Assembly (NCBI GenBank): GCA_964552775.1
Contig: CAZKIH010000011.1
Span: 15,206-79,205 of the forward strand
Direction: 5' to 3'
From: an uncultured Ignavibacteria bacterium
Lineage (GTDB): Bacteria > Zixibacteria > MSB-5A5 > CAIYYT01
Length of the DNA stretch: 64,000 bases
Shown: positions 9,801-63,176 of the stretch, in pieces
Position numbering within the stretch: position 1 is the stretch's first letter
Layout of the letters: the number at the start of each line of letters is the position of its first letter
Made by a program: the position numbers and the translations under genes
The notes under the pieces: generated by a model
The model's database searches: none
What the model was told of the DNA's origin: nothing
What the model saw: only the letters and a program-made list of their open reading frames with translations

Positions 9801-10030
9801 TTGTGGATAACAACAAGGACATCTCAGCATTGCGTAGGAGCTCTTCGTAGTTCACTACTGGTTCGGTACCCAAATCGCCGATGTCCACCAAAGAATCATT
9901 AAGGGCTGCGACGGGGCTAATGTTGTATTCGGGCGTAACTCAGAATTTCTAAGGAAATATTTCGGATGACCAACCTCCTCACCGATTCTCGCGTCGGTCG
10001 CGAGCATGAACAATCTTTTTCTTATTCACA
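9801..10030. promoter_or_regulatory. dnaA promoter region with DnaA boxes
   Basis: Perfect TTATCCACA (reverse-complement TGTGGATAA) at 9802-9810. TTATTCACA at 10021-10029. Duplicated GTTAACA motif at 9781-9799. Confidence 0.55.
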
Positions 10031-15550: not shown

Positions 15551-15700
15551 TCACAAAATCGACCGGAAATGTCAATCCAGCGCCTTGACTTGGAGTTTCT
15601 GGTCATCTATTCTGTGCATATCCCGCTGTCAGGTCCGGTTGGCACCCCGATTGCGGTCCAAGCTTGCATTGAACAATTGATATAGCCCTGGGAGGGAACT

Positions 15701-16558: not shown

Positions 16559-16567
16559 GGAGACGAA

Positions 16568-17350
16568 ATGGCTTACAATAACATCATCGTAGAAATACAA
16601 GGCGCCAAGGCCACGATCACCATGAACCGTCCTAAGGCGCTCAACGCACTCAATACAGAGACCTTGCTCGAAGTTAAGCAGGCCTTCACCGAGCTTGAGA
16701 CTGGCGGTCAAGTCAGGGTCGTGATCTTTACCGGTGCCGGCGAAAAAGCCTTCATCGCCGGAGCCGACATCGGCGAGCTGAAGACGCTTGATGTCGTGAC
16801 CGGAAAGAAATTCGTCGAGACTGGTCATGCGGTGCTCGCCCAAATTGAAAACTCCAGGATCATTTCAATTTGTGCCGTCAATGGATTCGCTTTGGGTGGT
16901 GGTTGTGAGTTCATGATGGCGACGGACATTCGCGTTGCGTCAGATACAGCCAGGATGGGCCAGCCGGAAGTCAACTTGGGAATCATTCCCGGATTCGGCG
17001 GCACGCAGCGGCTATCGCGTTTGGTCGGCAAAGGTCGAGCGAAAGAGCTCACGTTCAGTGCTCGCATCATCAAGGCAGACGAAGCACTTCGTATCGGACT
17101 GGTCGAGTTCATCTATCCCGCCGATCAACTGGTTGCTGAAGCAAACAAATTGGCTGATACGATTCTCTCCAAAAGCCCGCTCGGTGTCCAGTATGCGAAG
17201 GAATTGATCAATCGCGGCGGCGATATCGACCTGGCAAATGCAAATGGCCTCGAGATTCAAGCTTTCGCCGCCTTGTGCGCGACGGACGACAAGACCGAGG
17301 GCCTCGGCGCGTTTCTCGAAAAACGCGACGCCAAGTTTACAGGAAAGTAG
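16568..17350 (+). CDS. crt: Enoyl-CoA hydratase (crotonase)
   Basis: Crotonase fold with AGADI..., GGGCE..., and the GQPE oxyanion region. Confidence 0.9.
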
Positions 17351-37806: not shown

Positions 37807-38721
37807 CTACTGCTTTGGTAATCGTTGAAAGAATCTCGCTGCCAGAGCCTTTGCCTTACCTATATCAGAATACCCGGTTACGACCGCCAGCGTTTGCCTG
37901 TCTATTGCGCACAATACGGCTCCATGATCCGGGTGGGAGCCGACCAGTGATTGAATCTCGCCTTCCATAAGCCACTCATCTACTGTGCCCCTGTCACCAA
38001 TGAATTCGTCGGTCGCAGTAGTGAGTCCTATGGCCGAATTCACCATGAAATAAAGTCTCATCGTATCGTCAGCCACAACATATTGACAACCAAAGAATTC
38101 CGGGAATTCCTCATGGTCCATTTGATCGAGTGGACGAAGCGTTTCTGTGTTAGGAATTCGGCCTTCGGGAGGAAAAAGCACCAAGTGCCTTGGCCAGGAA
38201 TCTGTCGAGTCGACAATCGCCTGATACACCATGCTCGCCGTTTCAATCAGTTGGTCATCGCCAATATCGCCAATTCGTTCAAACCTTCCCAAGTGGCTCC
38301 CTTTTAGAAAACACAGCATATCGCCAGTGATGTAGCTTCGAGGCAGGTCACTAATTGTCTTTGTGGTGGAATTACGGTTCATTGCGAACATTGTAAATGC
38401 GTTGATTGGCTCCATGAATTCAATAACTTCAATTTTCAGAGACCGCGAATTGTCCGAAGATGCATAGATACCGGTAGCGAGTGTGTCCAGACCATTATTG
38501 AGGAAGATCTCAGCTTGTTGACTTAGGTGATCCCAGACTGTACTTCGGTCATAGATTTTTGCCGTGTCCCGCAGCACCAAATCGTTGAGGATATTCTGCT
38601 TAGGCAGTACTTGGCGCAAATCGCTCGACTGGGTCTTTGGCGCGGATGAGCCTGAACAACCAGCAATCGCCAAAATGAGAAATAATGAACTAAAGCAAAA
38701 AAGGTGAATACTAGACCGCAT
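37807..38721 (-). CDS. Hypothetical lipoprotein
   Basis: Lipobox LAIAGCSGSS after the signal peptide MRSSIHLFCFSSLFLI. Confidence 0.5.
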   Translation of the reverse strand: MRSSIHLFCFSSLFLILAIAGCSGSSAPKTQSSDLRQVLPKQNILNDLVLRDTAKIYDRSTVWDHLSQQAEIFLNNGLDTLATGIYASSDNSRSLKIEVIEFMEPINAFTMFAMNRNSTTKTISDLPRSYITGDMLCFLKGSHLGRFERIGDIGDDQLIETASMVYQAIVDSTDSWPRHLVLFPPEGRIPNTETLRPLDQMDHEEFPEFFGCQYVVADDTMRLYFMVNSAIGLTTATDEFIGDRGTVDEWLMEGEIQSLVGSHPDHGAVLCAIDRQTLAVVTGYSDIGKAKALAARFFQRLPKQ

Positions 38722-38764
38722 AATCTCGGGAATCCTTACTGAACCAGTTCGAGCCCAGGAATCT

Positions 38765-39646
38765 TCAACCACCGGTTAACCAGAATATCGCCATGACCGA
38801 GAGAAACCACAAGACAATATTGATCAGAATCGGCATGTCAGTAAGTAGCAGTCGCGTGGGTGAGCCGCCGCCTTCCTCCTGATGAATCAAATAGAGATAA
38901 CGGAATATTCCATAGAGAACGAAAGGTATCGTCAACTCAAGATGCTTGACGCCCAACTTCTCCTGAATCTCCGGGGACAGCGTGTAAAAAGTATAGGCGA
39001 CAACGGTCGAGGCAGTCACCACGCCGATAAGCTGATCGAGAAAATAAGGTGAGTATTTCTTGAGAGTCACACGATGACTATACGCCTGATCCTTCAGAAT
39101 CACCAGTTCGTGTCTTCGCTTGCCAAACCCAATAAACAGAGCCAAGAGAAATGTGCAGGCGATCAGCCAGGACGATGTGGGGACAGATATAGCAAAGGAG
39201 CCGGCAACGGCACGCAGGACAAACGATACCGCTATCGACATGACGTCAATGATAACGATGTCCTTGAGCAATGAAGTATAGAGAATGTTGAAGGCGACGA
39301 AAATCAAAGTGACGTTGAGAAAACTTCGCGGAAGAAGAAATGACAACCCTAATCCACATACTATGAGTCCAACTGCCAGCGCCCGGGCGGCAACTACTGA
39401 GACCGTCCCCGAAGCCAATGGGCGGCTCTTCTTAAGCGGATGGAGGCGATCCGTTTCCCGGTCGTGCAGATCATTGATCACGTAAATAGCTGATGACAGC
39501 AGGCAGTAGATTCCGAATGCCATCAGTGTGTGGAGAATGTTCTGCGTGTCTGTGAACTGGCGCGCAAAGATCAGCGCCCCGAATACGATCAGGTTTTTTA
39601 CCCACTGATCGGGTCGCAGGAGAATAAGGATTGCTCGTAGGTGCAT
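38765..39646 (-). CDS. UbiA-family prenyltransferase (decaprenyl-phosphate phosphoribosyltransferase-like / possible DGGGP-synthase-like)
   Basis: NDxxDxxxD motif NDLHDRETD; about 8 TM helices. Confidence 0.7.
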   Translation of the reverse strand: MHLRAILILLRPDQWVKNLIVFGALIFARQFTDTQNILHTLMAFGIYCLLSSAIYVINDLHDRETDRLHPLKKSRPLASGTVSVVAARALAVGLIVCGLGLSFLLPRSFLNVTLIFVAFNILYTSLLKDIVIIDVMSIAVSFVLRAVAGSFAISVPTSSWLIACTFLLALFIGFGKRRHELVILKDQAYSHRVTLKKYSPYFLDQLIGVVTASTVVAYTFYTLSPEIQEKLGVKHLELTIPFVLYGIFRYLYLIHQEEGGGSPTRLLLTDMPILINIVLWFLSVMAIFWLTGG

Positions 39647-39680
39647 CAGGCGATTTCTATCTGCATGTGAGAATGGTTTG

Positions 39681-40319
39681 TTATATCGTCTTGAACGGCA
39701 ACGCCTTGCGGATCTCAGGCAGAGCTATGTGCATGAAGTTCTCCGCCAGTTGCTGGCATTCTTCCGGTTTCTTGCCACTCTGACCGACAGTCAACCGGAT
39801 GATAACTGCATCGGTCGGCGATAACAAGAGCGAATTGCGCACAAGATCAAACTTCAGCGCATATTCGGAAGCAAGATCACCGGAGCGCGTATGAAACCAA
39901 TAGAACATCTGATCAACTCGGGATCGTTTGGTTATGGTCATTCGATTGACCTCGATTTCGCGATCTCCCAAATCAAAAGGAACATGGTCCAGTCCCGTCA
40001 GGACCCAGCCGCCGCCGGGAAGGCAATGACGAGGCGAGTGAATTTGTGAACCGTACTTCTGATCCCGAAAATAGGCAATATACAGACCGACGTAATTTCC
40101 CGCACCGTCCGTGTATCCCCGCAATAGAACATCCGTCGCCTGCAGCACAGCTGCCGTAGCCTCGCCCACAGGAAAGACCTCAGCCTTCCAGCCCGCAATC
40201 TCAAGAGGAATGTCAGCCAAGCGCGAAGGCTGGTCGGGTTCCACTGCCATATATCGAAGTACCGTTGCCATCGCTCCGAACGGCAGCAACAAGACGATTA
40301 TGACCAGAAACTTCTTCAC
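39681..40319 (-). CDS. epsI: EpsI-family exosortase-associated protein
   Basis: ~210 aa with N-terminal TM. 4-nt overlap with the upstream exosortase gene. Confidence 0.6.
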   Translation of the reverse strand: MKKFLVIIVLLLPFGAMATVLRYMAVEPDQPSRLADIPLEIAGWKAEVFPVGEATAAVLQATDVLLRGYTDGAGNYVGLYIAYFRDQKYGSQIHSPRHCLPGGGWVLTGLDHVPFDLGDREIEVNRMTITKRSRVDQMFYWFHTRSGDLASEYALKFDLVRNSLLLSPTDAVIIRLTVGQSGKKPEECQQLAENFMHIALPEIRKALPFKTI

Positions 40320-41221
40320 CTTTTCGATTCTCCGTCTTGCTCCGTCTTCTCGCCGATATGAAGCACACTACTCAAAATCAAGAGACAAACCAAACTGAAC
40401 ACAAATACTATGGTACCTGACAATTCATGAATGAAATCTTCAGCGATGGAGCGTGAAATTCCATAAGCACCCATCGCCGTTACCCAGATTCGAAAGATGT
40501 TAGCCGCCACGGCGATCGGAACTGTCGCAACAAACAAGGTAATTGCCTTCCACTTAACAGTTTGAGTCAAGTAAGCCAATAATGCGCCTAAAGCCAGCAG
40601 GGTGACCAGCGAACGAAGTCCGGAACAAGCCTCTGCCACCTCAAGGGAGTAGTTATCAAGCAGGTGGATAATATTCCCCTGGCGAAGGTGAGGCACGCCG
40701 AACAACCCAAGTAGGCCGGCAGCGACCTTTGAACCAAGCATTTGAAGCGGAAATGTTGCGCTGTAATAGATGATGTAAGGCACCGGTATCATGAAAAGCA
40801 GGAAGAAGAATGCAAACCAAATCTCCCTCGCAAATCGCGCTCCGGCAAGGTACAGTGTTATTCCAAACAACAAGCCAACTAATGAGATTCGTGCGGTGAA
40901 GTATTCCATGCCGGCCGTGCCGAGAATGAAGATGATCAGAGATGCGATCATGACCGGAATTCCCAGCTTGCTCGATTCCAGAGGGATTGTCCGCAACGCG
41001 GCTCGTTTCCTCCAAATGATCCAGGCACTTACCGGGATGATCAAAAAGCCGTGGGAATAATTGTCATCGGTGTACCAATCACCCGCTAATTGCACCAGAA
41101 TCGGCAAATACATGAGCAGAATGATGCAGCCGATTATGACAATCTGCCACATCGGTAATTCAAACGAACCGCCGGTAGCCAGTGACTTGCCGGGTGAATG
41201 GGCGATGTCGTTCTTAGGCAC
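40316..41221 (-). CDS. Exosortase (Xrt-family transpeptidase)
   Basis: W..DDNYSHGFL N-terminal motif; catalytic Cys in LEVAEACSGLRSL; conserved Arg in NIFRIWV; 8 TM helices. Confidence 0.75.
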   Translation of the reverse strand: MPKNDIAHSPGKSLATGGSFELPMWQIVIIGCIILLMYLPILVQLAGDWYTDDNYSHGFLIIPVSAWIIWRKRAALRTIPLESSKLGIPVMIASLIIFILGTAGMEYFTARISLVGLLFGITLYLAGARFAREIWFAFFFLLFMIPVPYIIYYSATFPLQMLGSKVAAGLLGLFGVPHLRQGNIIHLLDNYSLEVAEACSGLRSLVTLLALGALLAYLTQTVKWKAITLFVATVPIAVAANIFRIWVTAMGAYGISRSIAEDFIHELSGTIVFVFSLVCLLILSSVLHIGEKTEQDGESKR

Positions 41222-42164
41222 GGCTCTTCAGTGAGGCTTCACGTTTGTAAAACGCTATGGTCTTTTCTAATCCTTCTCGGAAGCCAATAGCTGGCTTGAT
41301 CCCGAGGACCCTCTCGACTTTAGATACATCAGCAAAAGAGTGCTTGATATCACCGGGGCGGGGATCGTCGTAGTGGGCAGTAATGTTCGTACCGATTAAT
41401 TCATTTAGCTGCTTCAGTAGCTCATTCAGTGTGTATTGGCCTCCGCAGGCGAGATTATATACTCCCGGAATGACCGCTTTCATCTCGCAAGCCTTGATGA
41501 TTCCATCAACCACATTGTCAATATACGTGAAATCGCGCGATTGCAGGCCGTCTCCGAATATCGTTGGCTGTTCCTTGCTCAGTAGGGCATTGATAAATTT
41601 CGGGATCACTGCCGCATAGTGACTGTTCGGATCCTGGTTGGGTCCGAAAACGTTGAAGTATCTGAATGCGACGCACGGCATCTTATAGAGATCGGAATAA
41701 ACACTGCAGTAATACTCACCCGTGATCTTGTTGACGGCGTATGGAGACATCGGAGCCGGTAGCATGTCTTCGTGTTTCGGAAGCGTTGGTGTATCACCAT
41801 AGACCGAAGAGGATGATGCGAAGAAGAACTTCTTGACTCCGTTGCGGCGAGCACATTCGAGCATGGTCAGTGTGCCGTTTATATTAGTGTGATTGGCGGT
41901 GAGAGGATTCTCAACCGATCGATTAACCGAAGGAAGCGCCGCCTGGTGAAGAACAAAATCAATCTCGCGACAACAGTCCAGTACCGTCCAGAAGTCGCAG
42001 ATATCTCCTTCGATAATATCAATCTCGGATTCAACGTCTCTCAGGTTCTGGCGTCTGCCGGTCGAAAAATTGTCCAAAACCCTGACCTTATCACCACGCT
42101 TAACGAGCGACTTGACGATGTTTGAGCCTATGAATCCAGCGCCACCTGTAACGAGATATCTCAT
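41214..42164 (-). CDS. NAD-dependent nucleotide-sugar epimerase (WbpP/TviC-like, extended SDR)
   Basis: VTGGAGFIGSN Rossmann motif; YxxxK. Confidence 0.8.
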   Translation of the reverse strand: MRYLVTGGAGFIGSNIVKSLVKRGDKVRVLDNFSTGRRQNLRDVESEIDIIEGDICDFWTVLDCCREIDFVLHQAALPSVNRSVENPLTANHTNINGTLTMLECARRNGVKKFFFASSSSVYGDTPTLPKHEDMLPAPMSPYAVNKITGEYYCSVYSDLYKMPCVAFRYFNVFGPNQDPNSHYAAVIPKFINALLSKEQPTIFGDGLQSRDFTYIDNVVDGIIKACEMKAVIPGVYNLACGGQYTLNELLKQLNELIGTNITAHYDDPRPGDIKHSFADVSKVERVLGIKPAIGFREGLEKTIAFYKREASLKSRA

Positions 42165-42287
42165 AAGAACTTATCCTCTCCAATTCCGTTCAGTATTCAT
42201 ATCGACAGCAGTCTGCATCGCCTTGATCTTGCTCGAACTCGATTCCCATACAATCGGGGCTCTTTCCAACAAACGCTATGATAGCGG

Positions 42288-43277
42288 TCAGCGGATATAC
42301 TCATTGGTCTGCCTGCCTGCCGGATGATCTCGAAACCACGAAATGGTTCGCTTCAGTCCTGCTTCTAGGCTGATTTCAGGCTTCCACCCTAATACACTTT
42401 GAGCTAGTCCATTGTTGGACAACAATCGTTCAACCTCTGATTGCTGCGGTCGCAAACGGTTCGGATCGCGCACCGGTTTCGTTTTGACACCAACCAGATT
42501 GGCGATCAAATCTACGAGCTCTCCTATTGATATCTCACGCCCGACACCAAGGTTGATTGTCTGCCCGATCGCCTGGTCAGCTTCGGCGCCGCAAATCATG
42601 CCGGTTGCCGTATCCGTGACATAAGTAAAATCGCGCGTGGGCGAGGTTGCACCAATTCGCAACTCATTTCCGACAAGCAACTGCGAAATGATAGTCGGGA
42701 TTACCGCGCGAAGCGACTGACGCGGACCGTAGGTGTTAAACGGACGGACGATGACAACAGGCAGCCCAAAGCTGCGATAGAATGAATCCGCCAACATGTC
42801 GGCTGAGATCTTAGAGGCCGAATATGGCGACTGTCCGACTTTGGGGTGGTTCTCGTCAATGGGAACGTACTGCGCCGTCCCATAGACTTCGGAAGTGGAA
42901 ACATGTACCACGCGCTTGACACCTTGATCAAGTGCCGCTGTGAGAACATTGGTCGTTCCGACAATATTCGTCTCGACATAATTGCGCGGATGAACATACG
43001 AGTACGGTATTCCGATCAGCGCAGCAAGATGAAACACGACATCGCATCCCTTGACCGCGTTTCGCACAGCATCAGAATCCTTAATGTCTCCGGCTATGAC
43101 TTCAGTCTTGCCGGTGACACTCTCGGGCATCGTGTCGATCCAGCCTCGATCCGAGCGCGAGTTGTAACGAATGAAAGCGCGGACGTTCGCGCCCTTGGCA
43201 ACCAAGGCTTCAAGTAGATGACTGCCGATGAATCCGGCTGCGCCGGTCACCAGGACAGTGCGGTCTCTCAATTTCAT
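42288..43277 (-). CDS. NAD-dependent nucleotide-sugar epimerase/4,6-dehydratase (extended SDR)
   Basis: VTGAAGFIGSH; catalytic YSASK. Confidence 0.8.
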   Translation of the reverse strand: MKLRDRTVLVTGAAGFIGSHLLEALVAKGANVRAFIRYNSRSDRGWIDTMPESVTGKTEVIAGDIKDSDAVRNAVKGCDVVFHLAALIGIPYSYVHPRNYVETNIVGTTNVLTAALDQGVKRVVHVSTSEVYGTAQYVPIDENHPKVGQSPYSASKISADMLADSFYRSFGLPVVIVRPFNTYGPRQSLRAVIPTIISQLLVGNELRIGATSPTRDFTYVTDTATGMICGAEADQAIGQTINLGVGREISIGELVDLIANLVGVKTKPVRDPNRLRPQQSEVERLLSNNGLAQSVLGWKPEISLEAGLKRTISWFRDHPAGRQTNEYIR

Positions 43278-43355
43278 GCAGGTATTATTGCGATGTTGGC
43301 AATATTAACGCAAGCGAGAATCTGAGGCTCTTCCCGCTTCACACTCCTGCTTCTC

Positions 43356-44240
43356 CTATGGACTGTACAGGATCTGCAGCTTTGCACCGGGTGTTCCGGT
43401 GAAATAGTCATACACATTCAACAAAATTGGGCCGGATGTCCCAAATTCAGCCTGATGCAGCGCCTTGATGAGAGCCAGGTCAAAACGCAGAGTGGTGTTT
43501 GTCCAACAGCGTTCATCCTGACAGTCTTTGCGGCAGTTATCATCATTGTTGTCGTGGCGCAAGTAGAGACTCGCTTGCACTGGATTTGATTCGGCGAATT
43601 CGCCGGGGGACATGTACAGAAAATAGTAATGGTTTTTGCAGCCGCCGCCGTGAGCGAGGTGGACAAACAGCGTGTCGGCAACGATTGCAACGCTGTCGAG
43701 GTCAAACGGATCGAGAGTTAATAGAGTTGGGAGTATCGAAACGGGTGTCACCGGTTCTACCAGAGCAGGTTTTGGCGATTCCTCGACAACGCGCAACGTG
43801 ATTCGCCAGGGCGGTAATGGTGACGTGGTGGATTTGTAGACTATCAACTCGTAAGGGTCCGGTCGTACAGCGTGAAGCTCGAAGTTGTAGCCGTTCCATG
43901 TTTCTGCAAGTGCGCTTGCTTCGCTGGTCCACGACAACCCGTACTTTCCCAAGACCAGATGCGCACCACCCGCTGATTCGGAGTTGACGTACAGCTCAAT
44001 CTCGACGAAGCCGGGATCGATGCAACCGAGTTCCCCGCTGCAGCGAGTGTCGTTGAGCATGCTGGACATACTGACGCTTAGGTCGGCTTCCTTGATTATT
44101 GCTGTTTGCTGCACTGCGAGTTCAAACGTAGCGCCAAGGTCGGCGTAAAAGATTTCCTGTGTGTTGGGTGGATCGGAGCATTGGAGAGAGAGCAAGCCAA
44201 GAAGCGCGATAGCTGCCACCCTGTAAGCGACTTGAATCAT
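43356..44240 (-). CDS. Hypothetical lipoprotein (start at internal Met MIQVAYR)
   Basis: Lipobox LSLQCS. The N-terminal extension of the 43356-44435 ORF overlaps the upstream gene, so the internal start is preferred. Confidence 0.45.
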   Translation of the reverse strand: MIQVAYRVAAIALLGLLSLQCSDPPNTQEIFYADLGATFELAVQQTAIIKEADLSVSMSSMLNDTRCSGELGCIDPGFVEIELYVNSESAGGAHLVLGKYGLSWTSEASALAETWNGYNFELHAVRPDPYELIVYKSTTSPLPPWRITLRVVEESPKPALVEPVTPVSILPTLLTLDPFDLDSVAIVADTLFVHLAHGGGCKNHYYFLYMSPGEFAESNPVQASLYLRHDNNDDNCRKDCQDERCWTNTTLRFDLALIKALHQAEFGTSGPILLNVYDYFTGTPGAKLQILYSP

Positions 44241-44349
44241 ATTGGACTCCTTCCGCAAGTAAAACGAACCAACGGAAGATTTGTCTATAAAGATTTCCAT
44301 GATTTCTGTGGCGGGTGGCGCCCAATTTGGGGCGCCACCGGGGGGACTC

Positions 44350-44868
44350 TTAGTGGTGGGCGTGAGCCGCGTGAACAAATGCATGGCCGCGTCCACGCTT
44401 GATGAGCCAACGATTGACCGGATAAGCGGCTGCACCGGCCAGCAGAAGCGAGGAGATCATGCTCGCCCAGAAGAGACCGGATAGTGGTCCCGCAGTCATG
44501 GCGCCGGGAATTACGAGCATAACGGCGTTATCGATGATTTCCATGATGATGATTGACACGGTATCGGATGCTAAAGCGAGAAGCAAAGCCGATCCGACTG
44601 CCAAACCGGAACGCAACAGCGGTACCAAGGTAAGGCCGTAACCGAAGAAGAAGGCGAGAGCGACAGAAAGGGCTATTGTCGACCAGGTGCCCCAGCCGAG
44701 GGACATGCCGATCAGCATCCCCAGAATTTCGCCGATCGCACAACCGGTCAGACAGTGAATGGTGGCGCTTAAGGCGAGTCGATTTAGTGATACGGGTGTT
44801 GACCGCTGATGTTCGTGGTGCATTGCGTGATTCATATAAGTACCTCCGTGTTCAGTTTCCAGCTTCAA
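44350..44868 (-). CDS. DUF4396-family integral membrane protein with His-rich termini
   Basis: HCLTGCAIGE motif; His-rich N-terminus (HAMHHEH) and C-terminus (HAFVHAAHAHH). Confidence 0.55.
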   Translation of the reverse strand: MKLETEHGGTYMNHAMHHEHQRSTPVSLNRLALSATIHCLTGCAIGEILGMLIGMSLGWGTWSTIALSVALAFFFGYGLTLVPLLRSGLAVGSALLLALASDTVSIIIMEIIDNAVMLVIPGAMTAGPLSGLFWASMISSLLLAGAAAYPVNRWLIKRGRGHAFVHAAHAHH

Positions 44869-52118: not shown

Positions 52119-52598
52119 TTACTCGCCGTAGTCGCCTTCAAATTTCGGCGGGTCAATTTGACCCCAATCGGGCCGATACAGTCCTTCGGCCACATACTTG
52201 CCAAACGACGAATGTTGCCACGCAATGGCGCTTGAAGACAACTTGTGTTTGACCGGATTGTAATGAATGTAATTCAAGTGGTTATTCATTTCGTCCTGAT
52301 CGCGGATGACGTGATCCCAGAAGCGATTGTGCCATACGCGACCATCGCGATAGTTCATACGAAATCTCGCGGCATACTTCACCTTGAATCGATGCATGAT
52401 ATTCGAGATGTTCTCATTGCCGCAGTTTAACATGACATGCAAATGATCAGGCGTCAAAACCCATGCATAGGGTATCACGGTGCTCCAGCATTCCCCAAAG
52501 AGATTGGGATTGTTGAGAAGCAATGGTTCGCGATCATAGGTCACGATTGTCAAGAAGTAATCGTGATTAGCAAGGTCGTATCGTCGCAAAGTCTTCAT
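52119..52598 (-). CDS. REP-associated tyrosine transposase (RAYT), second copy, distinct family
   Basis: HuH motif VLTPDHLHVML; NHLNYIHYNPVKH Tyr region. Confidence 0.85.
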   Translation of the reverse strand: MKTLRRYDLANHDYFLTIVTYDREPLLLNNPNLFGECWSTVIPYAWVLTPDHLHVMLNCGNENISNIMHRFKVKYAARFRMNYRDGRVWHNRFWDHVIRDQDEMNNHLNYIHYNPVKHKLSSSAIAWQHSSFGKYVAEGLYRPDWGQIDPPKFEGDYGE

Positions 52599-56252: not shown

Positions 56253-56837
56253 CTACGAGGAAAGAAGAGTCTCGGTCAATTGCGCCAACAGGTGCAACGC
56301 AAAGATGTGTTCTTCCTGAATACGCATGGTTGTGGTCGAAGGTACATTGAGCGCCAGATTGCACAAGTCCGGTTCGGACAAACCGGCCTCGCCAAACAAC
56401 CCAAGCGTTACCAGCTTGCGCGCATTGGCAGCTCGGAAAGCCTCGATGATATTCCGGGATCTTCCTGAAGTCGAAATGCCAATGAACACATCCCCGGCGG
56501 TCCCGTATGCCTCCACTTGTCGGCTGAAGACGTGTTCAAACCCGTAGTCGTTGGACGCAGCCGTGAGAATCGATGTATCGGTCGTCAGCGCGATTGCCGG
56601 CAGGGCCCGTCTATCGTTGTCAGAGGTCAATCGCACTACGAACTCGGCAGCAAAATGTTGGCAATCTGCAGCGGATCCGCCGTTTCCGGCAATAAGTACC
56701 TTCCTGCCGTGATTAAGTGCGGCTGCGAGCTCGTCAGATGCCGCCAACAGCCACTCTTCGCGCTTGAGGCTGAAAGCGTTCTTGAGCGATATCGCGTCGC
56801 TCACGGCTCCCGCGATAATCTGTTTACGACTGGTCAT
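56253..56837 (-). CDS. SIS-domain protein (GmhA phosphoheptose isomerase / DiaA-like)
   Basis: LIAGNGGSAADCQHFAAE motif. The longer ORF start at 56885 would overlap the upstream gene by 62 nt; the internal Met is preferred. Confidence 0.7.
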   Translation of the reverse strand: MTSRKQIIAGAVSDAISLKNAFSLKREEWLLAASDELAAALNHGRKVLIAGNGGSAADCQHFAAEFVVRLTSDNDRRALPAIALTTDTSILTAASNDYGFEHVFSRQVEAYGTAGDVFIGISTSGRSRNIIEAFRAANARKLVTLGLFGEAGLSEPDLCNLALNVPSTTTMRIQEEHIFALHLLAQLTETLLSS

Positions 56838-57549
56838 TCGGCTTGTCTGCAAATTCCTTGGAATGCTGGTGAATCGCTTCTGCAAACTCTACGAATAGGG
56901 AAAGTGGATTGCTCTCTTCGAAGCGATTACCCACGACGACGAAACTCGCACCAGCAGCAACTTTTCGTGAGGCGTCTTCGGGGTGGCGGATCCCTCCTCC
57001 GCAGATGATCGGAAGTGACGCGTAGTCCCGGGTCGCCCTGATCATTTCTTCCGGTACCGAGTGAATCGCCCCCGAACCTGCTTCCAGATAGACCAGCTTC
57101 ATCCCCATATACTTTGCTGCCAACGCGTGAACCTTTGCAATGTCAGGCTTGTTGCGCGGAATCGGATGCGTATGCGACAAATACTCTACTGAAGTCCGAG
57201 TTCCCGATTCGATCAAGAGATAAGCCGTCGGAATCGCCTCCAGACAAAACTCCTTAACTAACGGAGCTCCTTTGACCTGCTCGCCTACGAGGAATTCTGG
57301 ATTACGGCCGGACAACAACGATGTGAATAGAATCGCATCGGCAAATCGACAGACCTGGCTTGCCCCTCCCGGGAAAATGATCAGCGGAATCGTCACCCGT
57401 TGCTTGATCTCCCGCAGCACCTCTTCCATCCGCGTCGTCAGTACCAGCGAGCCTCCCACGAGAAGTGCGTCCGCACCGCCTTGCTCGGCATATTGGGCGT
57501 TATCGATCAACCTCGATTTCGGATGCTCATTGGGATCAATCAGCGTCAA
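56824..57549 (-). CDS. Geranylgeranylglyceryl phosphate synthase family (GGGPS/PcrB TIM-barrel prenyltransferase)
   Basis: TLIDP...GGADALLVGGS...GGGIR motifs. TTG start at 57549; the frame is open upstream to another TTG at 57648. Confidence 0.7.
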   Translation of the reverse strand: MTLIDPNEHPKSRLIDNAQYAEQGGADALLVGGSLVLTTRMEEVLREIKQRVTIPLIIFPGGASQVCRFADAILFTSLLSGRNPEFLVGEQVKGAPLVKEFCLEAIPTAYLLIESGTRTSVEYLSHTHPIPRNKPDIAKVHALAAKYMGMKLVYLEAGSGAIHSVPEEMIRATRDYASLPIICGGGIRHPEDASRKVAAGASFVVVGNRFEESNPLSLFVEFAEAIHQHSKEFADKPNDQS

Positions 57550-57706
57550 AAATCCGGCGCCTCGGGTTCGTGCGATATCGCTAAGATGGTCAAATGTCTT
57601 TGTCAGTTGTTCCTCGCAAATTGCATCCTGGTCATCTCTCTCTCAATCAGCTCGTCTCCACTCAGCGTGTGGCGAGATTCAGTCGGAGCTCGATTTGCAA
57701 ACTAAG

Positions 57707-57752
57707 TCATTCCGGCGAAAGCCGGAATCCAGCTTCGTTTCCAACATGCAAA
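57707..57752. repeat. 46-nt hairpin repeat GTCATTCCGGCGAAAGCCGGAATCCAGCTTCGTTTCCAACAT (copy 1), followed by a REP-B-like element at 57823-57856
   Basis: Near-identical second copy at 60583-60628. Contains the palindrome TTCCGGCGAAAGCCGGAA. Confidence 0.7.
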
Positions 57753-57861
57753 TCTCGTCGATTCACAGTTGGATGGTCCATTAACACGCCCTCAGCAGGC
57801 GGATTTTATGGGCGCAGTCAATAGCTCGGGAACGCAGCGCAGCGACGAACCCGACACTTTG

Positions 57862-60495
57862 CTATCTTATCGCCTTCTCGATCAGCGGCATTATCGTCGC
57901 TCGAATCTTCGCTTCATCCAGCGTTAGCGTCGTTGCACCCTGCACGAAATACTCACGTCCACCGCCGCGTCCGCCGAGAGCTGTATTCACATCTTTAATA
58001 ATCTCACGCGGCTGAATACCCATCTTGATCGCCGCATCCGAGGCCGTAATCGCGTACTGTCCGCTCAGATTATAGAAAACACCACTCGCGGCAAAACTCA
58101 GCGACTTAGTAAAGTCGGCATAAGTGTTGAGCTGTTCCTTCGTTTCAAACGTGTGCAACAACACCTTCACACCCTTGACATCAACGGCTTTGTTCGCAAA
58201 CAGGCTCTCGATCTCCCCCGACGCCGACTCCGCCTGTGTCTTTTCCAGTTCCTTCTTGAGCTTCTTACTTTCCTCAAGAAGTTCCTCCACCCGCGAGACG
58301 ATCTTGTCTTCCGGCTGCTTCAGAATCTGCCCTGCAGTGTCAAGCTTGGCTTTGACGCCGCGCAAGTACTCAAAGGCACCAGCACCGGTCAGAGCCTCAA
58401 TACGCCGAATCCCCGCCGCAATCGCCGTCTCTGCCGTGATAATGAACAACCCGATTTCACCGGTAGCCTGCACATGCGTTCCGCCGCACAGTTCCTTGGA
58501 GTAGCCCTCGACCTCGACCATTCGGACGCGATCGCCATATTTCTCGCCGAACAGTGCCATAGCGCCTTGCGCCTTGGCTTCATTTATGTCGAAGATATCC
58601 CACTTCACCTTGCGATTAGCGAGAATCTCTGCATTGACTTGCCGCTCGACCTCTTGAATCTCCTCTTCGCTCATAGCCTTGAAATGCGAGAAGTCGAATC
58701 GCAGTCGTTGCGGATCAACCAGCGATCCCTTCTGCTGAACATGCTCTCCCAGCACCGTGCGCAGTGCCTTGTGCAACAGATGTGTTGCCGTATGGTTGCG
58801 CTGAGTATGCTTCTGACGAACACCGTCAACCCGCGCAATGACATCGGCACCGATGACCTGGTCAGCCGGCACACCAATCGATTCAACGACATGTACGACA
58901 TAGTCGCCAACCTTCTGGGTGTCGGTGACTGCGAGCTTATTTCCGTTGATCATCAGAGTTCCGGTGTCGCCAATCTGGCCGCCTGATTCTGCATAAAACG
59001 GAGTATTATCCAGAATCACCTGGAGTTGTTTCTCTGCAGTGTTCGCACTCAGAGCGCGAGCCTTGACCTCAAAGCTGTCATTGTAACCAACATACCGAGT
59101 AGGCGCAACATTGCGCTCCGGGACAACGATGGCCGGCCCAAACCCGCCCGACTCCTTCGACCGCTGCTTTTGTAGCTGCAGCGCCGTATCGAAACCCTTC
59201 ATATCCAGCGCCAGCCCCTGCTCCCGCGCCATCACCTCAGTCATATCGACCGGAAATCCAAACGTATCGTATAATCTGAAAACTTCCTCACCGGGAATGG
59301 TCCTCTGCGATTTGCCCTTGAGCCGCTCCACAATCTTGTCAAAGATCTCAATGCCGCGATCCAGCGTCTCGCCAAAACTCTCCTCTTCCGACTTGATCAC
59401 CAGCGCAACATGTTCGGCCTGTGATTTGACCTCAGGAAATTGGTGTCCCATTGTGTCAACCAGCACCGAAGTCAGCTTGTAGATAAACGGATCATGCTTG
59501 CCGAGCAGACGTCCATGACGCGCACCCCTGCGCAAAATGCGCCTGAGAACATAGCCGCGGCCGTCATTCGACGGTACGCCTCCATCAGCGATGGCAAACG
59601 TCAGAGCGCGCACATGATCGGCGACGACCCGATGCGACAGGCCACGCTTGTCCTGGTGATACTCCTTGCCGGTCAGATCAACTATGGCGCTCAGAAGTGG
59701 GCTGAACACATCTGTATCGTAATTGGAATTTACTCTCTGCATCAACATCGTCATGCGCTCAAGACCTGCTCCGGTGTCGACCGAGGGCTTCGGTAAAGGC
59801 GTCAACTTGCCGGCAGCGTCGCGGTCATATTGCATGAATACCAGATTCCAGAATTCCATATATCGATCGCAATCGCAGTTGACCGTGCAAGTCGGCTTCC
59901 CGCATGAGTATTCCTTACCGCGGTCAAAATGCAGTTCCGAGCACGGGCCGCACGGACCGGTTTCGCCCATCGACCAGAAATTATCCTTTTCGCCAAAGCG
60001 CATGACCCGACCGTTAGCCAGTTCCGGCGCAATCCGCTCCCACAGGGCAAAAGCCTCATCATCATCCTTGTAGACAGTGGCATACAACCGATCCGCTGAT
60101 AGCCCCAGATCTTTGCGCACAAAGTCCCAGGCGAACTTGATGGCGTCTTCCTTGAAATAATCTCCAAAGGAGAAGTTGCCCAGCATCTCAAAGAAAGTAT
60201 GATGGCGCGCCGTTTCGCCGACATTTTCAAGATCGTTATGTTTGCCGCCCGCCCGGATGCACTTCTGCGAGGTCGTTGCGCGCTTGTAGTCGACCTTGCG
60301 TTGTCCCAGAAAGACATCCTTAAACTGGTTCATGCCGGCATTGGTGAACAGCAAGGTCGGGTCATCCTGTGGAATCAGCGACGAACTCGGCAGACGCTTA
60401 TGACTCTTCGATTCGAAGTATGATAAATAGGCTTCTCTGATTTCGGACGCTTTCAAGATTTCTCCTGCTTCATATGCGTATACATTTTTTACCAC
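57862..60495 (-). CDS. alaS: Alanine--tRNA ligase
   Basis: 877 aa; class II motifs; editing domain with the HxxxH...CGGTH zinc motif. Confidence 0.97.
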   Translation of the reverse strand: MVKNVYAYEAGEILKASEIREAYLSYFESKSHKRLPSSSLIPQDDPTLLFTNAGMNQFKDVFLGQRKVDYKRATTSQKCIRAGGKHNDLENVGETARHHTFFEMLGNFSFGDYFKEDAIKFAWDFVRKDLGLSADRLYATVYKDDDEAFALWERIAPELANGRVMRFGEKDNFWSMGETGPCGPCSELHFDRGKEYSCGKPTCTVNCDCDRYMEFWNLVFMQYDRDAAGKLTPLPKPSVDTGAGLERMTMLMQRVNSNYDTDVFSPLLSAIVDLTGKEYHQDKRGLSHRVVADHVRALTFAIADGGVPSNDGRGYVLRRILRRGARHGRLLGKHDPFIYKLTSVLVDTMGHQFPEVKSQAEHVALVIKSEEESFGETLDRGIEIFDKIVERLKGKSQRTIPGEEVFRLYDTFGFPVDMTEVMAREQGLALDMKGFDTALQLQKQRSKESGGFGPAIVVPERNVAPTRYVGYNDSFEVKARALSANTAEKQLQVILDNTPFYAESGGQIGDTGTLMINGNKLAVTDTQKVGDYVVHVVESIGVPADQVIGADVIARVDGVRQKHTQRNHTATHLLHKALRTVLGEHVQQKGSLVDPQRLRFDFSHFKAMSEEEIQEVERQVNAEILANRKVKWDIFDINEAKAQGAMALFGEKYGDRVRMVEVEGYSKELCGGTHVQATGEIGLFIITAETAIAAGIRRIEALTGAGAFEYLRGVKAKLDTAGQILKQPEDKIVSRVEELLEESKKLKKELEKTQAESASGEIESLFANKAVDVKGVKVLLHTFETKEQLNTYADFTKSLSFAASGVFYNLSGQYAITASDAAIKMGIQPREIIKDVNTALGGRGGGREYFVQGATTLTLDEAKIRATIMPLIEKAIR

Positions 60496-61606: not shown

Positions 61607-62590
61607 TTACCAATCAAGGATAATCGCGAACATCAACGGCGCAACAATCGAAGCGTCCGATTCAATGATGTACTTCGGCGTGTCTACTGAAAGTTTTCCC
61701 CAGGTGATCTTCTCATTGGGCACAGCACCGGAATAAGAACCGTAACTGGTTGTCGAATCAGATATCTGGCAGAAATAACCCCAGACCGGAACATCCTCAC
61801 GCTGCAGGTCCTGATGCAGCATCGGCACAACGCAGATCGGAAAATCGCCCGCAATTCCTCCACCGATCTGGTAAAATCCGATCGAGGACTTTCTCGAAGT
61901 CTCCGTGTACCACTCGGCGAGGAACGTCATGTACTCGATTCCGGTCTTAACCGTATGGACATTCTTGACGTCACCCGAGATCACATGACCGGCGTACATA
62001 TTTCCCATCGTCGAATCTTCCCAGCCCGGAACCACCATCGGCAGGTTCTTCTCCGCCGCTGCGACCATCCACGAGTCTTTGGGATCGATCTGATAGTATT
62101 GCTTAAGCACACCCGATTTGATTATGCGGTACATGAATTCATGCGGGAAGAACCGCTCGCGGGCTTTGTCAGCGCGAGTCCACTCGTCAACCAGTGCCTT
62201 TTCCAGCCGCCGCATCGCCTCCATTTCAGGTATACAGGTATCCGTCACGCGATTCATGTGGCGATTGAGCAGGGCAGCCTCGTCTGCAGGCGTCAAATCC
62301 CGATAATGTGGAACGCGCTCGTAGTAATCATGCGCCACCAGGTTGAATAAGTCCTCTTCGAGATTGGCGCCAGTGCAGCTAATAATATGCACCTGGTCGC
62401 GACGAATCATCTCCGCCAGGGAAATTCCCAACTCGGCAGTGCTCATTGCCCCTGCGAGCGAATGCAGCATCTTGCCACCCTTCTCGATATGGCGCTTGTA
62501 CGCGATTGAAGCGTCAATCAGGGCAGCAGAGTTGAAATGCCGATAGTGGTGTTTGAGAAACTTCGTGATTTCACCGTTGCTCATTGACAA
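61607..62590 (-). CDS. Deoxyhypusine synthase-like protein (DHS/homospermidine-synthase family)
   Basis: DHS fold with NAD-binding motifs (CTGANLEED..., GGGIAGDF). Confidence 0.8.
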   Translation of the reverse strand: MSMSNGEITKFLKHHYRHFNSAALIDASIAYKRHIEKGGKMLHSLAGAMSTAELGISLAEMIRRDQVHIISCTGANLEEDLFNLVAHDYYERVPHYRDLTPADEAALLNRHMNRVTDTCIPEMEAMRRLEKALVDEWTRADKARERFFPHEFMYRIIKSGVLKQYYQIDPKDSWMVAAAEKNLPMVVPGWEDSTMGNMYAGHVISGDVKNVHTVKTGIEYMTFLAEWYTETSRKSSIGFYQIGGGIAGDFPICVVPMLHQDLQREDVPVWGYFCQISDSTTSYGSYSGAVPNEKITWGKLSVDTPKYIIESDASIVAPLMFAIILDW

Positions 62591-62594
62591 TCAC

Positions 62595-63176
62595 CTAATC
62601 TTCGTCTTCGCTGTCCACGGGCTCGTCATCAAGGATCAACATTGCCGCCGTGATCACCGTCGTCCACATCCCGGTTTTGTCGCCTTCCGCAGATTGCGTA
62701 ATGTTGCGTGAGTAGACGACCTCGCCCTTGAGCTTCCACTGCTCTTTATTTTGGTCCCACGACTTGTCGAGATCAATTTCCAGGCCCATCGTGGTAGCCA
62801 GCATCTGCACAGCCAAATCCTCGGCGTAATCGCCTGCAACCTTCTGGGTTTGGCCGAATCCGTGGTGTTCCGACAGGTATCCGAATTTCGCCTTGTCTTT
62901 GGGCATGGCAATACCAATTGATGACGACACCAACCGGTTCGGCTCGTTCGTCGCATCACGGCTCATGACGCAAAATCCGATCTGTCCTGGTTTGAAGTAC
63001 TTCAGGCCGACGCGACGCGAAATCAGCTTACAGTGCGGCGGAAAGATCGAGGAAACATTTACGAGATTGAGATAGGCAATGCCGGCATCACGGAGAGCCA
63101 GCTCGAAAGAAGCGAGCTTTTCTTTGTGTCTGCCCACGCCTTTCGTCAGAAAGAGCTTTTTCGGTACGAAGTTCAA
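62595..63176 (-). CDS. Pyruvoyl-dependent arginine decarboxylase
   Basis: ~190 aa PvlArgDC family, including the serine self-cleavage region. Confidence 0.7.
   Translation of the reverse strand: MNFVPKKLFLTKGVGRHKEKLASFELALRDAGIAYLNLVNVSSIFPPHCKLISRRVGLKYFKPGQIGFCVMSRDATNEPNRLVSSSIGIAMPKDKAKFGYLSEHHGFGQTQKVAGDYAEDLAVQMLATTMGLEIDLDKSWDQNKEQWKLKGEVVYSRNITQSAEGDKTGMWTTVITAAMLILDDEPVDSEDED

What the first reader, a model, noticed from the sequence alone, without database searches (positions are those of the whole stretch)
56824..57648. Archaeal-type GGGPS/PcrB homolog in a bacterial origin region
The protein carries the LIDP / GGS / GGGI TIM-barrel signatures of geranylgeranylglyceryl-phosphate synthases. 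A UbiA-family prenyltransferase, a possible DGGGPS-like partner, lies at 38765-39646. Together they could indicate capacity for ether-linked isoprenoid glycerol lipids, as proposed for some bacteria. Alternatively it is a PcrB-type heptaprenylglyceryl-phosphate synthase. The start codon is ambiguous (TTG at 57549 or 57648).
Basis: partly seen in the sequence, partly recalled or inferred. Interest (0 to 1): 0.55.

Follow-up and report, generated by a model that had tools for sequence, protein, structure and literature searches.

The report
Bacterial group II GGGP synthase gene
This is a real, conserved bacterial copy of the archaeal-type enzyme that makes the first ether bond of isoprenoid glycerol lipids, of a kind already known in Bacteroidetes-related phyla, and the proposed partner gene 17 kb away belongs to a different pathway.

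Summary
The ORF is real and encodes a group II geranylgeranylglyceryl-phosphate synthase (GGGPS), not a PcrB-type heptaprenyl enzyme. It passes NCBIfam cut-offs for GGGPS (NF003198, TIGR01769) and fails the heptaprenyl model (23.8 vs 260 bits). It is 44% identical to the M. thermautotrophicus and Flavobacterium enzymes and about 20% to PcrB and A. fulgidus GGGPS. It falls in the bacterial group II clade with 100% bootstrap.

The stated 5' end is wrong. Position 57648 is not a TTG and is followed by an in-frame TGA. TTG 57549 lies inside strand beta-1. The homologous start is CTG 57606 (TTG in six relatives, CTG in one), preceded by GAGGA, giving 260 aa.

The UbiA gene at 38765-39646 is a decaprenyl-phosphate phosphoribosyltransferase-like gene in an exosortase/polysaccharide locus, not a DGGGPS. 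No G1P dehydrogenase or DGGGPS was found among the 50 window ORFs scanned. The rest of the genome could not be searched.

The gene sits in a recX-alaS-GGGPS-gmhA-like arrangement that recurs across relatives labelled Zixibacteria, KSB1 and Ignavibacteria. GGGPS in these phyla is already published, so this is a new member of a known kind, of low to moderate interest.

The parts
56824..57606 (-). GGGPS coding sequence, group II, 260 aa, with probable CTG start at 57606-57604 and TAA stop at 56826-56824
   Evidence: PF01884 159.4 bits. NF003198 282.5 vs 247 and TIGR01769 215.9 vs 161.55. PDB 4mm1 1.6e-57. AF2 pLDDT 88, Foldseek TM 0.87/0.95 to MtGGGPS. N-terminus fixed by homologues.
57611..57615 (-). 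Shine-Dalgarno-like GAGGA, 4 nt upstream of the CTG start
   Evidence: Read. GAGG occupies the same position ahead of the homologous TTG/CTG in L002-L008. Function is inferred.
57643..57645 (-).
57547..57549 (-). TTG, the first canonical start in frame, but it is internal codon Leu20 within strand beta-1
   Evidence: One search lists it as the ORF start. The AF2 model places beta-1 at residues 18-23 and helix alpha-0 at 4-15. HMM and PDB alignments extend upstream of it.
56253..56837 (-). GmhA-like SIS-domain gene (194 aa from ATG 56837), overlapping the GGGPS stop by 14 nt
   Evidence: PF13580 75.2 bits. Phosphoheptose isomerase models score 178.6 and 168.7 bits, both below cut-off. The same 14-nt overlap occurs in L001/L007. 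A SIS gene lies within 100 nt downstream in 44 of 75 bacterial loci.
57862..60495 (-). alaS (alanyl-tRNA synthetase), the conserved upstream neighbour
   Evidence: Translation and ortholog hits. alaS lies within 300 nt upstream in 43 of 77 bacterial loci.
57709..57728 (-). GC-rich hairpin in the 255-nt alaS-GGGPS spacer, a possible alaS terminator with a weak T tail
   Evidence: This is a pattern match only.
38765..39646 (-). UbiA-family gene proposed as partner. It is decaprenyl-phosphate phosphoribosyltransferase-like and is not part of the GGGPS system.
   Evidence: NF008977 298.5 vs 234, DGGGPS NF009521 41.6 vs 296. PDB 8j8j 5e-30 vs 6m31 3.8e-5. Only 27% identity over 130 aa to a Cloacimonetes DGGGPS. 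Neighbours are DUF6599, EpsI, exosortase and epimerases.

Best explanation
The gene encodes a functional group II (bacterial, 'IIb') geranylgeranylglyceryl-phosphate synthase. This is a (beta-alpha)8-barrel prenyltransferase. With Mg2+ it ionises a C20 polyprenyl diphosphate (GGPP) and transfers the geranylgeranyl group to the C3 hydroxyl of sn-glycerol-1-phosphate, forming the first ether bond (GGGP).

The protein is probably translated from a CTG codon at 57606. It is co-transcribed and translationally coupled with a downstream GmhA-like isomerase gene, within a recX-alaS-GGGPS-gmhA arrangement that recurs across many related loci and looks ancestral, in a lineage of the Fibrobacteres-Chlorobi-Bacteroidetes (FCB) superphylum (public labels Ignavibacteria and Zixibacteria).

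Shown here: family and group membership, fold, conserved catalytic and binding residues, purifying selection and synteny. Inferred: C20 and G1P specificity, hexameric state, CTG initiation, and the fate of the product.
For: - **HMMs:** NF003198 282.5 (cut-off 247), TIGR01769 'GGGP' 215.9 (cut-off 161.55), heptaprenyl model NF003197 23.8 (cut-off 260).
- **Solved relatives:** MtGGGPS 4mm1 1.6e-57, FjGGGPS 4jej 2.2e-49, Thermoplasma 6jo3 and 6nke about 1e-43 to 1e-41, against PcrB 2e-6 and AfGGGPS 1.5e-5.
- **Identity:** 44% to Mt and Fj, 19-21% to Af and PcrB.
- **Tree:** in an NJ tree with 200 bootstraps, the group I | group II split has 100% support and so does the bacterial group II clade containing the window protein and FjGGGPS.
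- **Structure:** AF2 pLDDT 88, pTM 0.88, with alpha-0 followed by the alternating strands and helices of a barrel fold. Foldseek TM is 0.87/0.95 at rmsd about 1.6 A to MtGGGPS, and about 0.73 at 2.7-3.4 A to PcrB and AfGGGPS.
- **Residues (roles from PMC9385802):** Asp24 (LIDP), Tyr129, Tyr173 and Glu175 (YLE), Gly177-Ser178, Gly203-205 and Gly226 are all conserved. The limiter position (Mt V86) is Val85. The aromatic anchor position (Mt W141) is Tyr142.
- **Selection:** dN is 0.08 with saturated synonymous sites against five species-level relatives.
- **Start and synteny:** start codon and SD conservation. Synteny.
- **Precedent:** bacterial group II enzymes were reported active with GGPP and G1P (Peterhoff 2014, as summarised in PMC9385802 and PMC7888582).
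Against: - No biochemical data exist for this protein or its close relatives.
- The phosphate-binding beta-alpha-8 residue is Asn227, where archaeal group II, Mt and Fj have Thr. This Asn is common in the bacterial clade (117 of 120 nearest homologues) and is the group I state, so it probably still binds phosphate.
- No canonical ATG/GTG/TTG start gives a full-length protein, and CTG initiation is rare.
- No G1P dehydrogenase, GGPP synthase or DGGGPS gene was seen in the window or within 10 kb in relatives of the same locus type. Substrate supply and downstream steps are therefore unknown.
Confidence: 0.88

Rival explanations
1. It is a PcrB-type heptaprenylglyceryl-phosphate synthase, as in Bacillus, making a C35 mono-ether that is later dephosphorylated and acetylated.
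For: It belongs to the same Pfam family, PF01884 'PcrB'. It is bacterial. Like PcrB and group I, it has Asn in the beta-alpha-8 phosphate loop.
Against: NF003197 scores 23.8 bits against a cut-off of 260. It is 21% identical to BsPcrB against 44% to group II enzymes. The group I/PcrB versus group II split has 100% bootstrap support. The structural match to PcrB is poorer, TM 0.73 against 0.87-0.95. The group II limiter position carries Val as in MtGGGPS.
Confidence: 0.02
2. The gene is one half of a complete archaeal-type diether pathway, paired with the UbiA gene at 38765-39646 acting as DGGGPS, so the organism makes archaeol-like or mixed membranes.
For: GGGPS is genuine. FCB phyla were reported to carry GGGPS and 'DGGGPS orthologs', and the Cloacimonetes pair makes archaeal lipids in E. 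coli (PMC6431249, PMC7852524). Some bacterial relatives do have DGGGPS-GGR-GGGPS clusters (L019, L034, L064, L104).
Against: The window UbiA is DPPR-synthase-like by a curated cut-off, and it is embedded in an exosortase/polysaccharide locus 17 kb away. No DGGGPS-like UbiA was found next to GGGPS in this lineage or in alaS-GGGPS-SIS type loci. Only 1 of 24 loci with at least 8 kb on each side has one. No G1PDH or GGR was found in the window scan. A DGGGPS elsewhere in the genome is not excluded.
Confidence: 0.05
3. The gene is a decaying pseudogene or an N-terminally truncated protein, because no canonical start codon yields the full-length product.
For: The first ATG/GTG/TTG in frame is TTG 57549, which gives 241 aa lacking helix alpha-0. 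The closest relatives have TTG where the window has CTG.
Against: The frame is intact for 260 codons. dN is 0.08 with saturated dS. All catalytic residues are kept. The 19 codons upstream of 57549 remain homologous to alpha-0. L004 independently has CTG at the same codon, and the GAGG motif is retained. The 14-nt overlap with the downstream gene is preserved.
Confidence: 0.05

Closest known systems
Group II GGGPS of Methanothermobacter thermautotrophicus (PDB 4mm1; archaeal, hexameric)
   Same: 44% identity over 229 residues. Same fold (TM 0.87/0.95, rmsd about 1.6 A). Same Asp (LIDP), Tyr/Tyr/Glu triad, Val at the limiter position, and an aromatic residue (Tyr instead of Trp141) at the hexamer 'anchor' position.
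   Different: The host is bacterial. Asn227 replaces the group II Thr226 in the beta-alpha-8 phosphate loop. There is a two-residue insertion before the anchor helix. The window protein has a 25-residue low-confidence C-terminal tail.
Bacterial group II (IIb) GGGPS of Flavobacterium johnsoniae (PDB 4jej; dimeric, active with GGPP and G1P)
   Same: It is in the same bacterial group II clade (100% bootstrap) with 44% identity and the same motifs.
   Different: Fj has Arg at the anchor position and is a dimer (PMC7888582), whereas the window protein has Tyr and is predicted to be a hexamer. Fj has Thr where the window has Asn in beta-alpha-8, and Ile where the window has Val at the limiter position.
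GGGPS of Ca. Cloacimonetes and Poribacteria-type loci (DGGGPS-GGR-GGGPS clusters; Villanueva et al. 2021, PMC7852524)
   Same: Same enzyme family and bacterial clade (L019 is 46% identical). Same open question of where G1P comes from when egsA/araM is absent.
   Different: Those genes are clustered with a DGGGPS-like UbiA and a geranylgeranyl reductase. The window gene lies between alaS and a gmhA-like gene, with no such partners within reach.
PcrB, heptaprenylglyceryl-phosphate synthase of Bacillus subtilis (PDB 3vzx)
   Same: Same Pfam family and TIM-barrel prenyltransferase chemistry on G1P. Asn in the beta-alpha-8 loop.
   Different: 21% identity. Different group (I). The curated HMM is failed (23.8 vs 260). 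The chain-length ruler is on a different helix (PMC9385802).

Membership tests
GGGPS/PcrB family (PF01884) TIM-barrel prenyltransferases | Significant match to the family HMM above the curated threshold | tested here: met
   PF01884 159.4 bits vs 23.9; TIGR01768 178.1 vs 113.25.
GGGPS/PcrB family (PF01884) TIM-barrel prenyltransferases | (beta-alpha)8 barrel with an extra N-terminal helix alpha-0 | tested here: met
   AF2 model with pLDDT 88: helix 4-15, then alternating strands and helices. Foldseek top hits are all GGGPS structures. This is a predicted structure, not a solved one.
GGGPS/PcrB family (PF01884) TIM-barrel prenyltransferases | Conserved Asp of beta-1 (LIDP), the Tyr/Tyr/Glu triad, and the standard phosphate-binding loops beta-alpha-6/7/8 | tested here: met
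   D24, Y129, Y173, E175, G177-S178, G203-G205 and G226-N227 align with the MtGGGPS residues. Residue roles are taken from PMC9385802.
GGGPS/PcrB family (PF01884) TIM-barrel prenyltransferases | Catalyses polyprenyl transfer to sn-glycerol-1-phosphate | not testable with these tools
   Needs an enzyme assay.
Group II GGGPS (IIb, bacterial) | Clusters with group II rather than with group I or PcrB | tested here: met
   NF003198 282.5 vs 247 and TIGR01769 215.9 vs 161.55. The group I | group II split and the bacterial group II clade each have 100% bootstrap support.
Group II GGGPS (IIb, bacterial) | Small aliphatic limiter residue on helix alpha-3' (Mt V86 / Fj I90), implying C20 specificity | tested here: met
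   Val85 aligns with Mt V86. Chain-length specificity itself is inferred.
Group II GGGPS (IIb, bacterial) | Conserved Thr in the beta-alpha-8 phosphate loop (where group I has Asn) | tested here: not met
   The window has Asn227. So do 117 of the 120 nearest homologues, while Mt, Fj, seven crenarchaeal sequences and L019 have Thr. Among 95 bacterial loci both states occur and neither tracks locus type. This Thr is therefore not universal in bacterial group II.
Group II GGGPS (IIb, bacterial) | Aromatic anchor (W/Y/F/H) on helix alpha-5', associated with hexamers | tested here: met
   Tyr142 aligns with Mt W141. The oligomeric state was not tested.
PcrB-type heptaprenylglyceryl-phosphate synthase (group Ib) | Match to the equivalog model NF003197, and grouping with Bacillus PcrB | tested here: not met
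   23.8 bits vs a cut-off of 260. 21% identity. Separated with 100% bootstrap support.
DGGGPS (UbiA superfamily), for the ORF at 38765-39646 | Match to DGGGPS equivalog models, and similarity to characterised DGGGPS | tested here: not met
   NF009521 41.6 vs 296 and NF009522 27.2 vs 353. 6m31 gives 3.8e-5 over 97 residues.
Decaprenyl-phosphate phosphoribosyltransferase (UbiA superfamily), for the ORF at 38765-39646 | Match to the equivalog model above cut-off, and full-length similarity to Rv3806c-type enzymes | tested here: met
   NF008977 298.5 vs 234. 8j8j gives 5e-30 over residues 6-286. Activity was not tested.
Complete archaeal-type ether-lipid pathway (G1PDH + GGGPS + DGGGPS, with or without GGR) | G1P dehydrogenase (EgsA/AraM, Fe-ADH family) and DGGGPS present in the same genome | tested here: inconclusive
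   None was found among the 50 window ORFs scanned with Pfam. None was found within 10 kb in same-type relatives. DGGGPS searches returned no hit on contigs that carry this type of GGGPS. Whole genomes could not be searched.

The most novel reading that the evidence does not exclude
In this large FCB-related clade, GGGPS may not be part of an archaeal-style diether membrane pathway. Its gene order is conserved as recX-alaS-GGGPS-(CpsB-like phosphatase)-gmhA-like, often followed by a sugar transferase and a flippase. The tight translational coupling to the GmhA-like gene fits a role in making a mono-ether geranylgeranylglycerol(-phosphate) lipid that serves as an anchor or primer for an envelope glycoconjugate. 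This would parallel the Bacillus PcrB product, but with C20 chemistry and a different downstream route.
Probability: 0.12. Interest if true: 0.6.

Novelty: new member of a known kind. Interest (0 to 1): 0.27.

Why it matters
Bacterial group II GGGPS genes bear on the 'lipid divide' question, namely whether some bacteria make archaeal-type ether lipids or mixed membranes. This window adds a well-conserved example, under purifying selection, from a poorly known FCB lineage.

It also shows that a nearby UbiA-family gene should not be counted as DGGGPS without family-level classification. This caveat applies to presence/absence surveys of 'DGGGPS orthologs'.

The survey made here suggests that most relatives carry GGGPS in an alaS-GGGPS-gmhA-like arrangement, without DGGGPS or GGR nearby. 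If confirmed genome-wide, this would point to a function other than diether membrane synthesis in those lineages. The finding itself, a GGGPS in an FCB bacterium, is already in the literature (PMC6431249, PMC7852524).

Tried and rejected
Rejected: the codon is GAT and is followed by TGA.
2. **ATT 57621 as start.** Considered, since an AGGA lies 4 nt upstream. It is less likely than CTG 57606, because the homologous TTG/CTG and its GAGG align at 57606 in seven relatives.
3. **Beta-alpha-8 Asn versus Thr as a marker for the two locus types** (alaS/SIS versus DGGGPS/GGR). Rejected: both residues occur in both types.
4. **Looking for a DGGGPS in the same genomes.** I searched the protein database with a DGGGPS-like protein (L019) and then with a profile of six locus-derived sequences plus two database sequences. 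I then compared the listed longest-contig lengths with those of contigs carrying this GGGPS type. No match was found. This is inconclusive, because only the best 120 hits are listed and only same-contig cases could be seen.
5. **Source genome.** It is not in the genome collection: the best match is 89% identical, and only a 1.7-kb Logan contig carries the identical RecF. Genome-wide checks were therefore impossible.
6. **Rfam scan of the window.** No hit.
7. **GC skew.** No sign change in the window, so oriC was not located by skew.
8. **First bootstrap attempt.** The Biopython get_support values were invalid because of rooting. I recomputed support as split frequencies.
9. **SIS protein as a G1P-forming enzyme.** Considered and dropped. 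It retains the GmhA-type catalytic Glu/His/Gln and the Ser/Thr phosphate loop (judged by eye against my recollection of E. coli GmhA, which was not verified with a tool). Aldose-ketose isomerase chemistry also has no obvious route to G1P.
Full report

The minus strand carries an open frame that ends with TAA at 56826-56824. Its translation contains LIDP, GGS and GGGI. It matches Pfam PF01884 at 159.4 bits against a gathering score of 23.9, so the feature is far beyond chance.

The codon at 57648-57646 is GAT, and TGA follows directly at 57645-57643. The first canonical start after that stop is TTG 57549 (241 aa). However, HMM and PDB alignments extend 17-19 residues upstream of it.

Related proteins of 260 aa begin 'MTK...' or 'MNR...' exactly at window codon 57606. 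At the DNA level, that codon is TTG in L002, L003, L005, L006, L007 and L008, and CTG in L004 and in the window. In every case GAGG lies a few bases upstream. In the window it is GAGGA at 57615-57611.

In the AlphaFold model, residues 4-15 form the family's extra helix alpha-0 and residues 18-23 form strand beta-1. TTG 57549 (Leu20) therefore lies inside beta-1. I conclude that the gene spans 56824-57606 (260 aa) and probably starts at a rare CTG codon. That initiation event is inferred, not shown.

**2. What is it?**

- **Curated models.** The protein passes NCBIfam NF003198 (282.5 vs 247) and TIGR01769 'phosphoglycerol geranylgeranyltransferase' (215.9 vs 161.55). The heptaprenylglyceryl-phosphate synthase model NF003197 scores 23.8 against a cut-off of 260.
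- **Solved structures.** The best matches are group II enzymes: M. thermautotrophicus 4mm1 (1.6e-57), Flavobacterium johnsoniae 4jej (2.2e-49), and Thermoplasma 6jo3 and 6nke (about 1e-43 to 1e-41). Bacillus PcrB and A. fulgidus GGGPS score only 1e-5 to 1e-6.
- **Reference sequences.** I recovered exact reference sequences for BsPcrB, a second PcrB (4nae) and AfGGGPS from the PDB search, and most of Mt and Fj GGGPS.
- **Identity and tree.** In a 32-sequence alignment, identity is 44% to Mt and Fj and 19-21% to Af and PcrB. In 200 neighbour-joining bootstraps, the group I | group II split has 100% support. So does the clade uniting all bacterial group II sequences, including the window protein and FjGGGPS.
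- **Structure.** The AF2 model (pLDDT 88, pTM 0.88) superposes on MtGGGPS with TM 0.87/0.95 and rmsd about 1.6 A. Against PcrB and AfGGGPS it gives TM about 0.7 and rmsd 2.7-3.5 A.

The PcrB alternative is therefore rejected.

**3. Functional residues**

Residue roles are taken from the review PMC9385802 and from PMC7888582. The alignment gives:

| Role | Window residue | Comparison |
|---|---|---|
| Beta-1 Asp (LIDP) | D24 | conserved |
| Tyr/Tyr/Glu triad | Y129, Y173, E175 | conserved |
| Phosphate loops | G177-S178, G203-G205, G226 | conserved |
| Group II chain-length limiter | Val85 | Mt V86, Fj I90 |
| Aromatic anchor for hexamers | Tyr142 | Mt W141; dimeric Fj has Arg |
| Beta-alpha-8 phosphate loop | Asn227 | Thr in Mt, Fj, seven crenarchaeal sequences and L019 |

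There is one departure from the group II pattern. The residue after Gly226 in the beta-alpha-8 phosphate loop is Asn, not Thr. Asn is the group I state. It occurs in 117 of the 120 nearest homologues. In a wider set of 95 bacterial loci both states occur, without relation to gene context. I read this as normal variation within bacterial group II.

Against five species-level relatives, dN is 0.08 while synonymous sites are saturated. The gene is therefore under strong purifying selection.

**4. Surroundings**

The window contains the following genes:

- **Origin-region and housekeeping genes:** dnaA (10046), dnaN (11655), yidC, mnmE, mnmG, rsmG, parA/parB, gyrA (49049), gyrB (52673), recF (55070), alaS (57862) and recX (60842).
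- **Immediately downstream of GGGPS:** a GmhA-like SIS gene (56253-56837).

A perfect DnaA box lies upstream of dnaA. There is no GC-skew switch inside the window.

The SIS gene overlaps the GGGPS stop by 14 nt (ATGACCAGTCGTAA). The same overlap is seen in L001/L007.

The closest genomes are MAGs labelled 'uncultured Ignavibacteria' or 'Zixibacteria', at 88-89% protein identity. The source genome itself is not in the collections.

**5. The proposed partner gene**

The UbiA-family ORF at 38765-39646 passes the curated cut-off for decaprenyl-phosphate phosphoribosyltransferase (NF008977, 298.5 vs 234). It scores 41.6 vs 296 on the DGGGPS model.

Its best solved relative is the mycobacterial DPPR synthase 8j8j (5e-30, full length). 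M. jannaschii DGGGPS 6m31 gives only 3.8e-5 over 97 residues. It shares 27% identity over 130 residues with a Cloacimonetes DGGGPS.

It overlaps a DUF6599 gene and is followed by EpsI, an exosortase and two sugar epimerase/dehydratase genes. It belongs to a cell-surface polysaccharide or exosortase module, not to ether-lipid synthesis.

No Fe-ADH-type G1P dehydrogenase and no DGGGPS was found among the 50 window ORFs scanned.

**6. Comparison across relatives**

The order recX-alaS-GGGPS-SIS is kept in several groups:

- the window's own lineage (L002-L008, L021, L022);
- Zixibacteria MAGs (L010, L023);
- a KSB1 MAG (L024), with two inserted genes.

I then surveyed 95 bacterial loci from genome and metagenome collections:

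| Loci considered | Result |
|---|---|
| 75 with enough downstream sequence | 44 have the SIS gene within 100 nt on the same strand |
| 77 with enough upstream sequence | 43 have alaS within 300 nt |
| All 95 | 9 have a DGGGPS-like UbiA and/or a geranylgeranyl reductase next to GGGPS |
| 24 with at least 8 kb on each side | 1 contains a DGGGPS-like UbiA |

One of the nine is L019, where the order is UbiA (best NCBIfam hits DGGGPS-type), then GGR (TIGR02032, 202 vs 158.8), then GGGPS. Database names place this cluster type in Poribacteria and Cloacimonetes.

Ten loci carry a CpsB-like PHP phosphatase between GGGPS and the SIS gene, with a sugar transferase and flippase further downstream.

Two database searches for DGGGPS found no hit on contigs that carry the alaS-type GGGPS. 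This test is weak.

**7. Relation to what is known**

- Group II GGGPS in Bacteroidetes and related phyla is established. Bacterial group II enzymes were characterised as GGPP/G1P-dependent GGGPS (Peterhoff et al. 2014, as summarised in PMC9385802 and PMC7888582).
- Coleman et al. 2019 (PMC6431249) reported GGGPS and 'DGGGPS orthologs' in all 12 FCB phyla surveyed, including Zixibacteria and Ignavibacteria. They found G1PDH only in Fibrobacteres and Cloacimonetes.
- Villanueva et al. 2021 (PMC7852524) showed that the Cloacimonetes GGGPS/DGGGPS pair makes archaeal-type lipids in E. coli.

The window gene is therefore a new member of a known kind. I found no paper linking GGGPS with phosphoheptose isomerase in the searchable library. 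The conserved alaS-GGGPS-gmhA-like arrangement may thus be unreported, but its functional meaning is unknown.

**8. Verdict**

The most likely mechanism is Mg2+-dependent transfer of a C20 prenyl group from GGPP to G1P, by a probably hexameric TIM-barrel enzyme translated from CTG 57606. Confidence is 0.88 for the family and reaction type. Specificity, oligomeric state and start codon are inferred.

Interest is low to moderate.

Noticed in passing
window 2333-4865 (-), next to TssC at 433-1839: A ClpV/ClpB-like AAA+ ATPase beside a type VI secretion sheath gene is split into two ORFs in the same frame. One covers Clp_N + NBD1 (3444-4865) and the other AAA_2 + D2-small (2333-3406). They are separated by two consecutive stop codons and five codons, and the second half has its own ATG and an AGGA upstream. 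It is either a natural two-piece ATPase or a disrupted gene.
   Followed up: partly
window 38765-39646 (-) with neighbours 37807-44435: A decaprenyl-phosphate phosphoribosyltransferase-like UbiA gene overlaps a DUF6599 gene and sits with EpsI, an exosortase, a TviC-like epimerase and a LegB-like dehydratase. This suggests a polyprenyl-phospho-pentose donor used in an exosortase-linked surface polysaccharide or glycoprotein system.
   Followed up: partly
95 bacterial GGGPS loci (L002-L104); window 56253-60495: The gene order (recX-)alaS-GGGPS-gmhA-like SIS recurs widely among bacterial group II GGGPS loci: SIS is adjacent in 44 of 75 and alaS in 43 of 77. DGGGPS/GGR-linked loci are a minority (9). 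Ten loci insert a CpsB-like PHP phosphatase between GGGPS and SIS. I found no paper on this linkage.
   Followed up: partly
GGGPS residue 227 (window about 56926-56928) and homologues: The beta-alpha-8 phosphate-loop residue, described as a conserved Thr in group II, is Asn here and in 117 of the 120 nearest homologues. Thr and Asn both occur among bacterial relatives, independent of locus type.
   Followed up: yes
window 57604-57606 (-); L004 10001-10003: The GGGPS start codon is CTG in the window and in one related MAG, and TTG in six others. This is an apparent TTG/CTG start-codon polymorphism with a conserved GAGG upstream.
   Followed up: yes
window 52119-52598 (-): An IS200-like Y1 transposase ORF (PF01797, 28.5 bits vs 23) lies between gyrA and gyrB.
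   Followed up: no
window 61607-63176 (-): A pyruvoyl-dependent arginine decarboxylase (PF01862, 197 bits) is adjacent to a deoxyhypusine/homospermidine-synthase-like gene that scores below all equivalog cut-offs. This looks like an archaeal-style polyamine module in a bacterium.
   Followed up: no
window 57709-57728 (-), in the 255-nt alaS-GGGPS spacer: There is a GC-rich 8-bp hairpin with a weak T tail. The spacer is about four times longer than in relatives, where it is about 60 nt. Some relatives carry palindromic CCCCTCTCCC...GGGAGAGGGG elements there.
   Followed up: no
window 9803-9811 (+): A perfect DnaA box (TGTGGATAA) lies about 240 nt upstream of dnaA. Cumulative GC skew shows no minimum inside the window.
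   Followed up: partly
window 13647-17350: Two tandem, overlapping PTA_PTB (phosphate acyltransferase) paralogues lie next to 3-hydroxybutyryl-CoA dehydrogenase and crotonase genes. This is a butyrate-type fermentation module.
   Followed up: no
L001/L007 10770-11636, L008: In the 76%-identical relatives, the GmhA-like gene downstream of GGGPS is fused to a C-terminal zf-CDGSH iron-sulfur domain (288 aa). This domain is absent from the window's 194-aa version.
   Followed up: no
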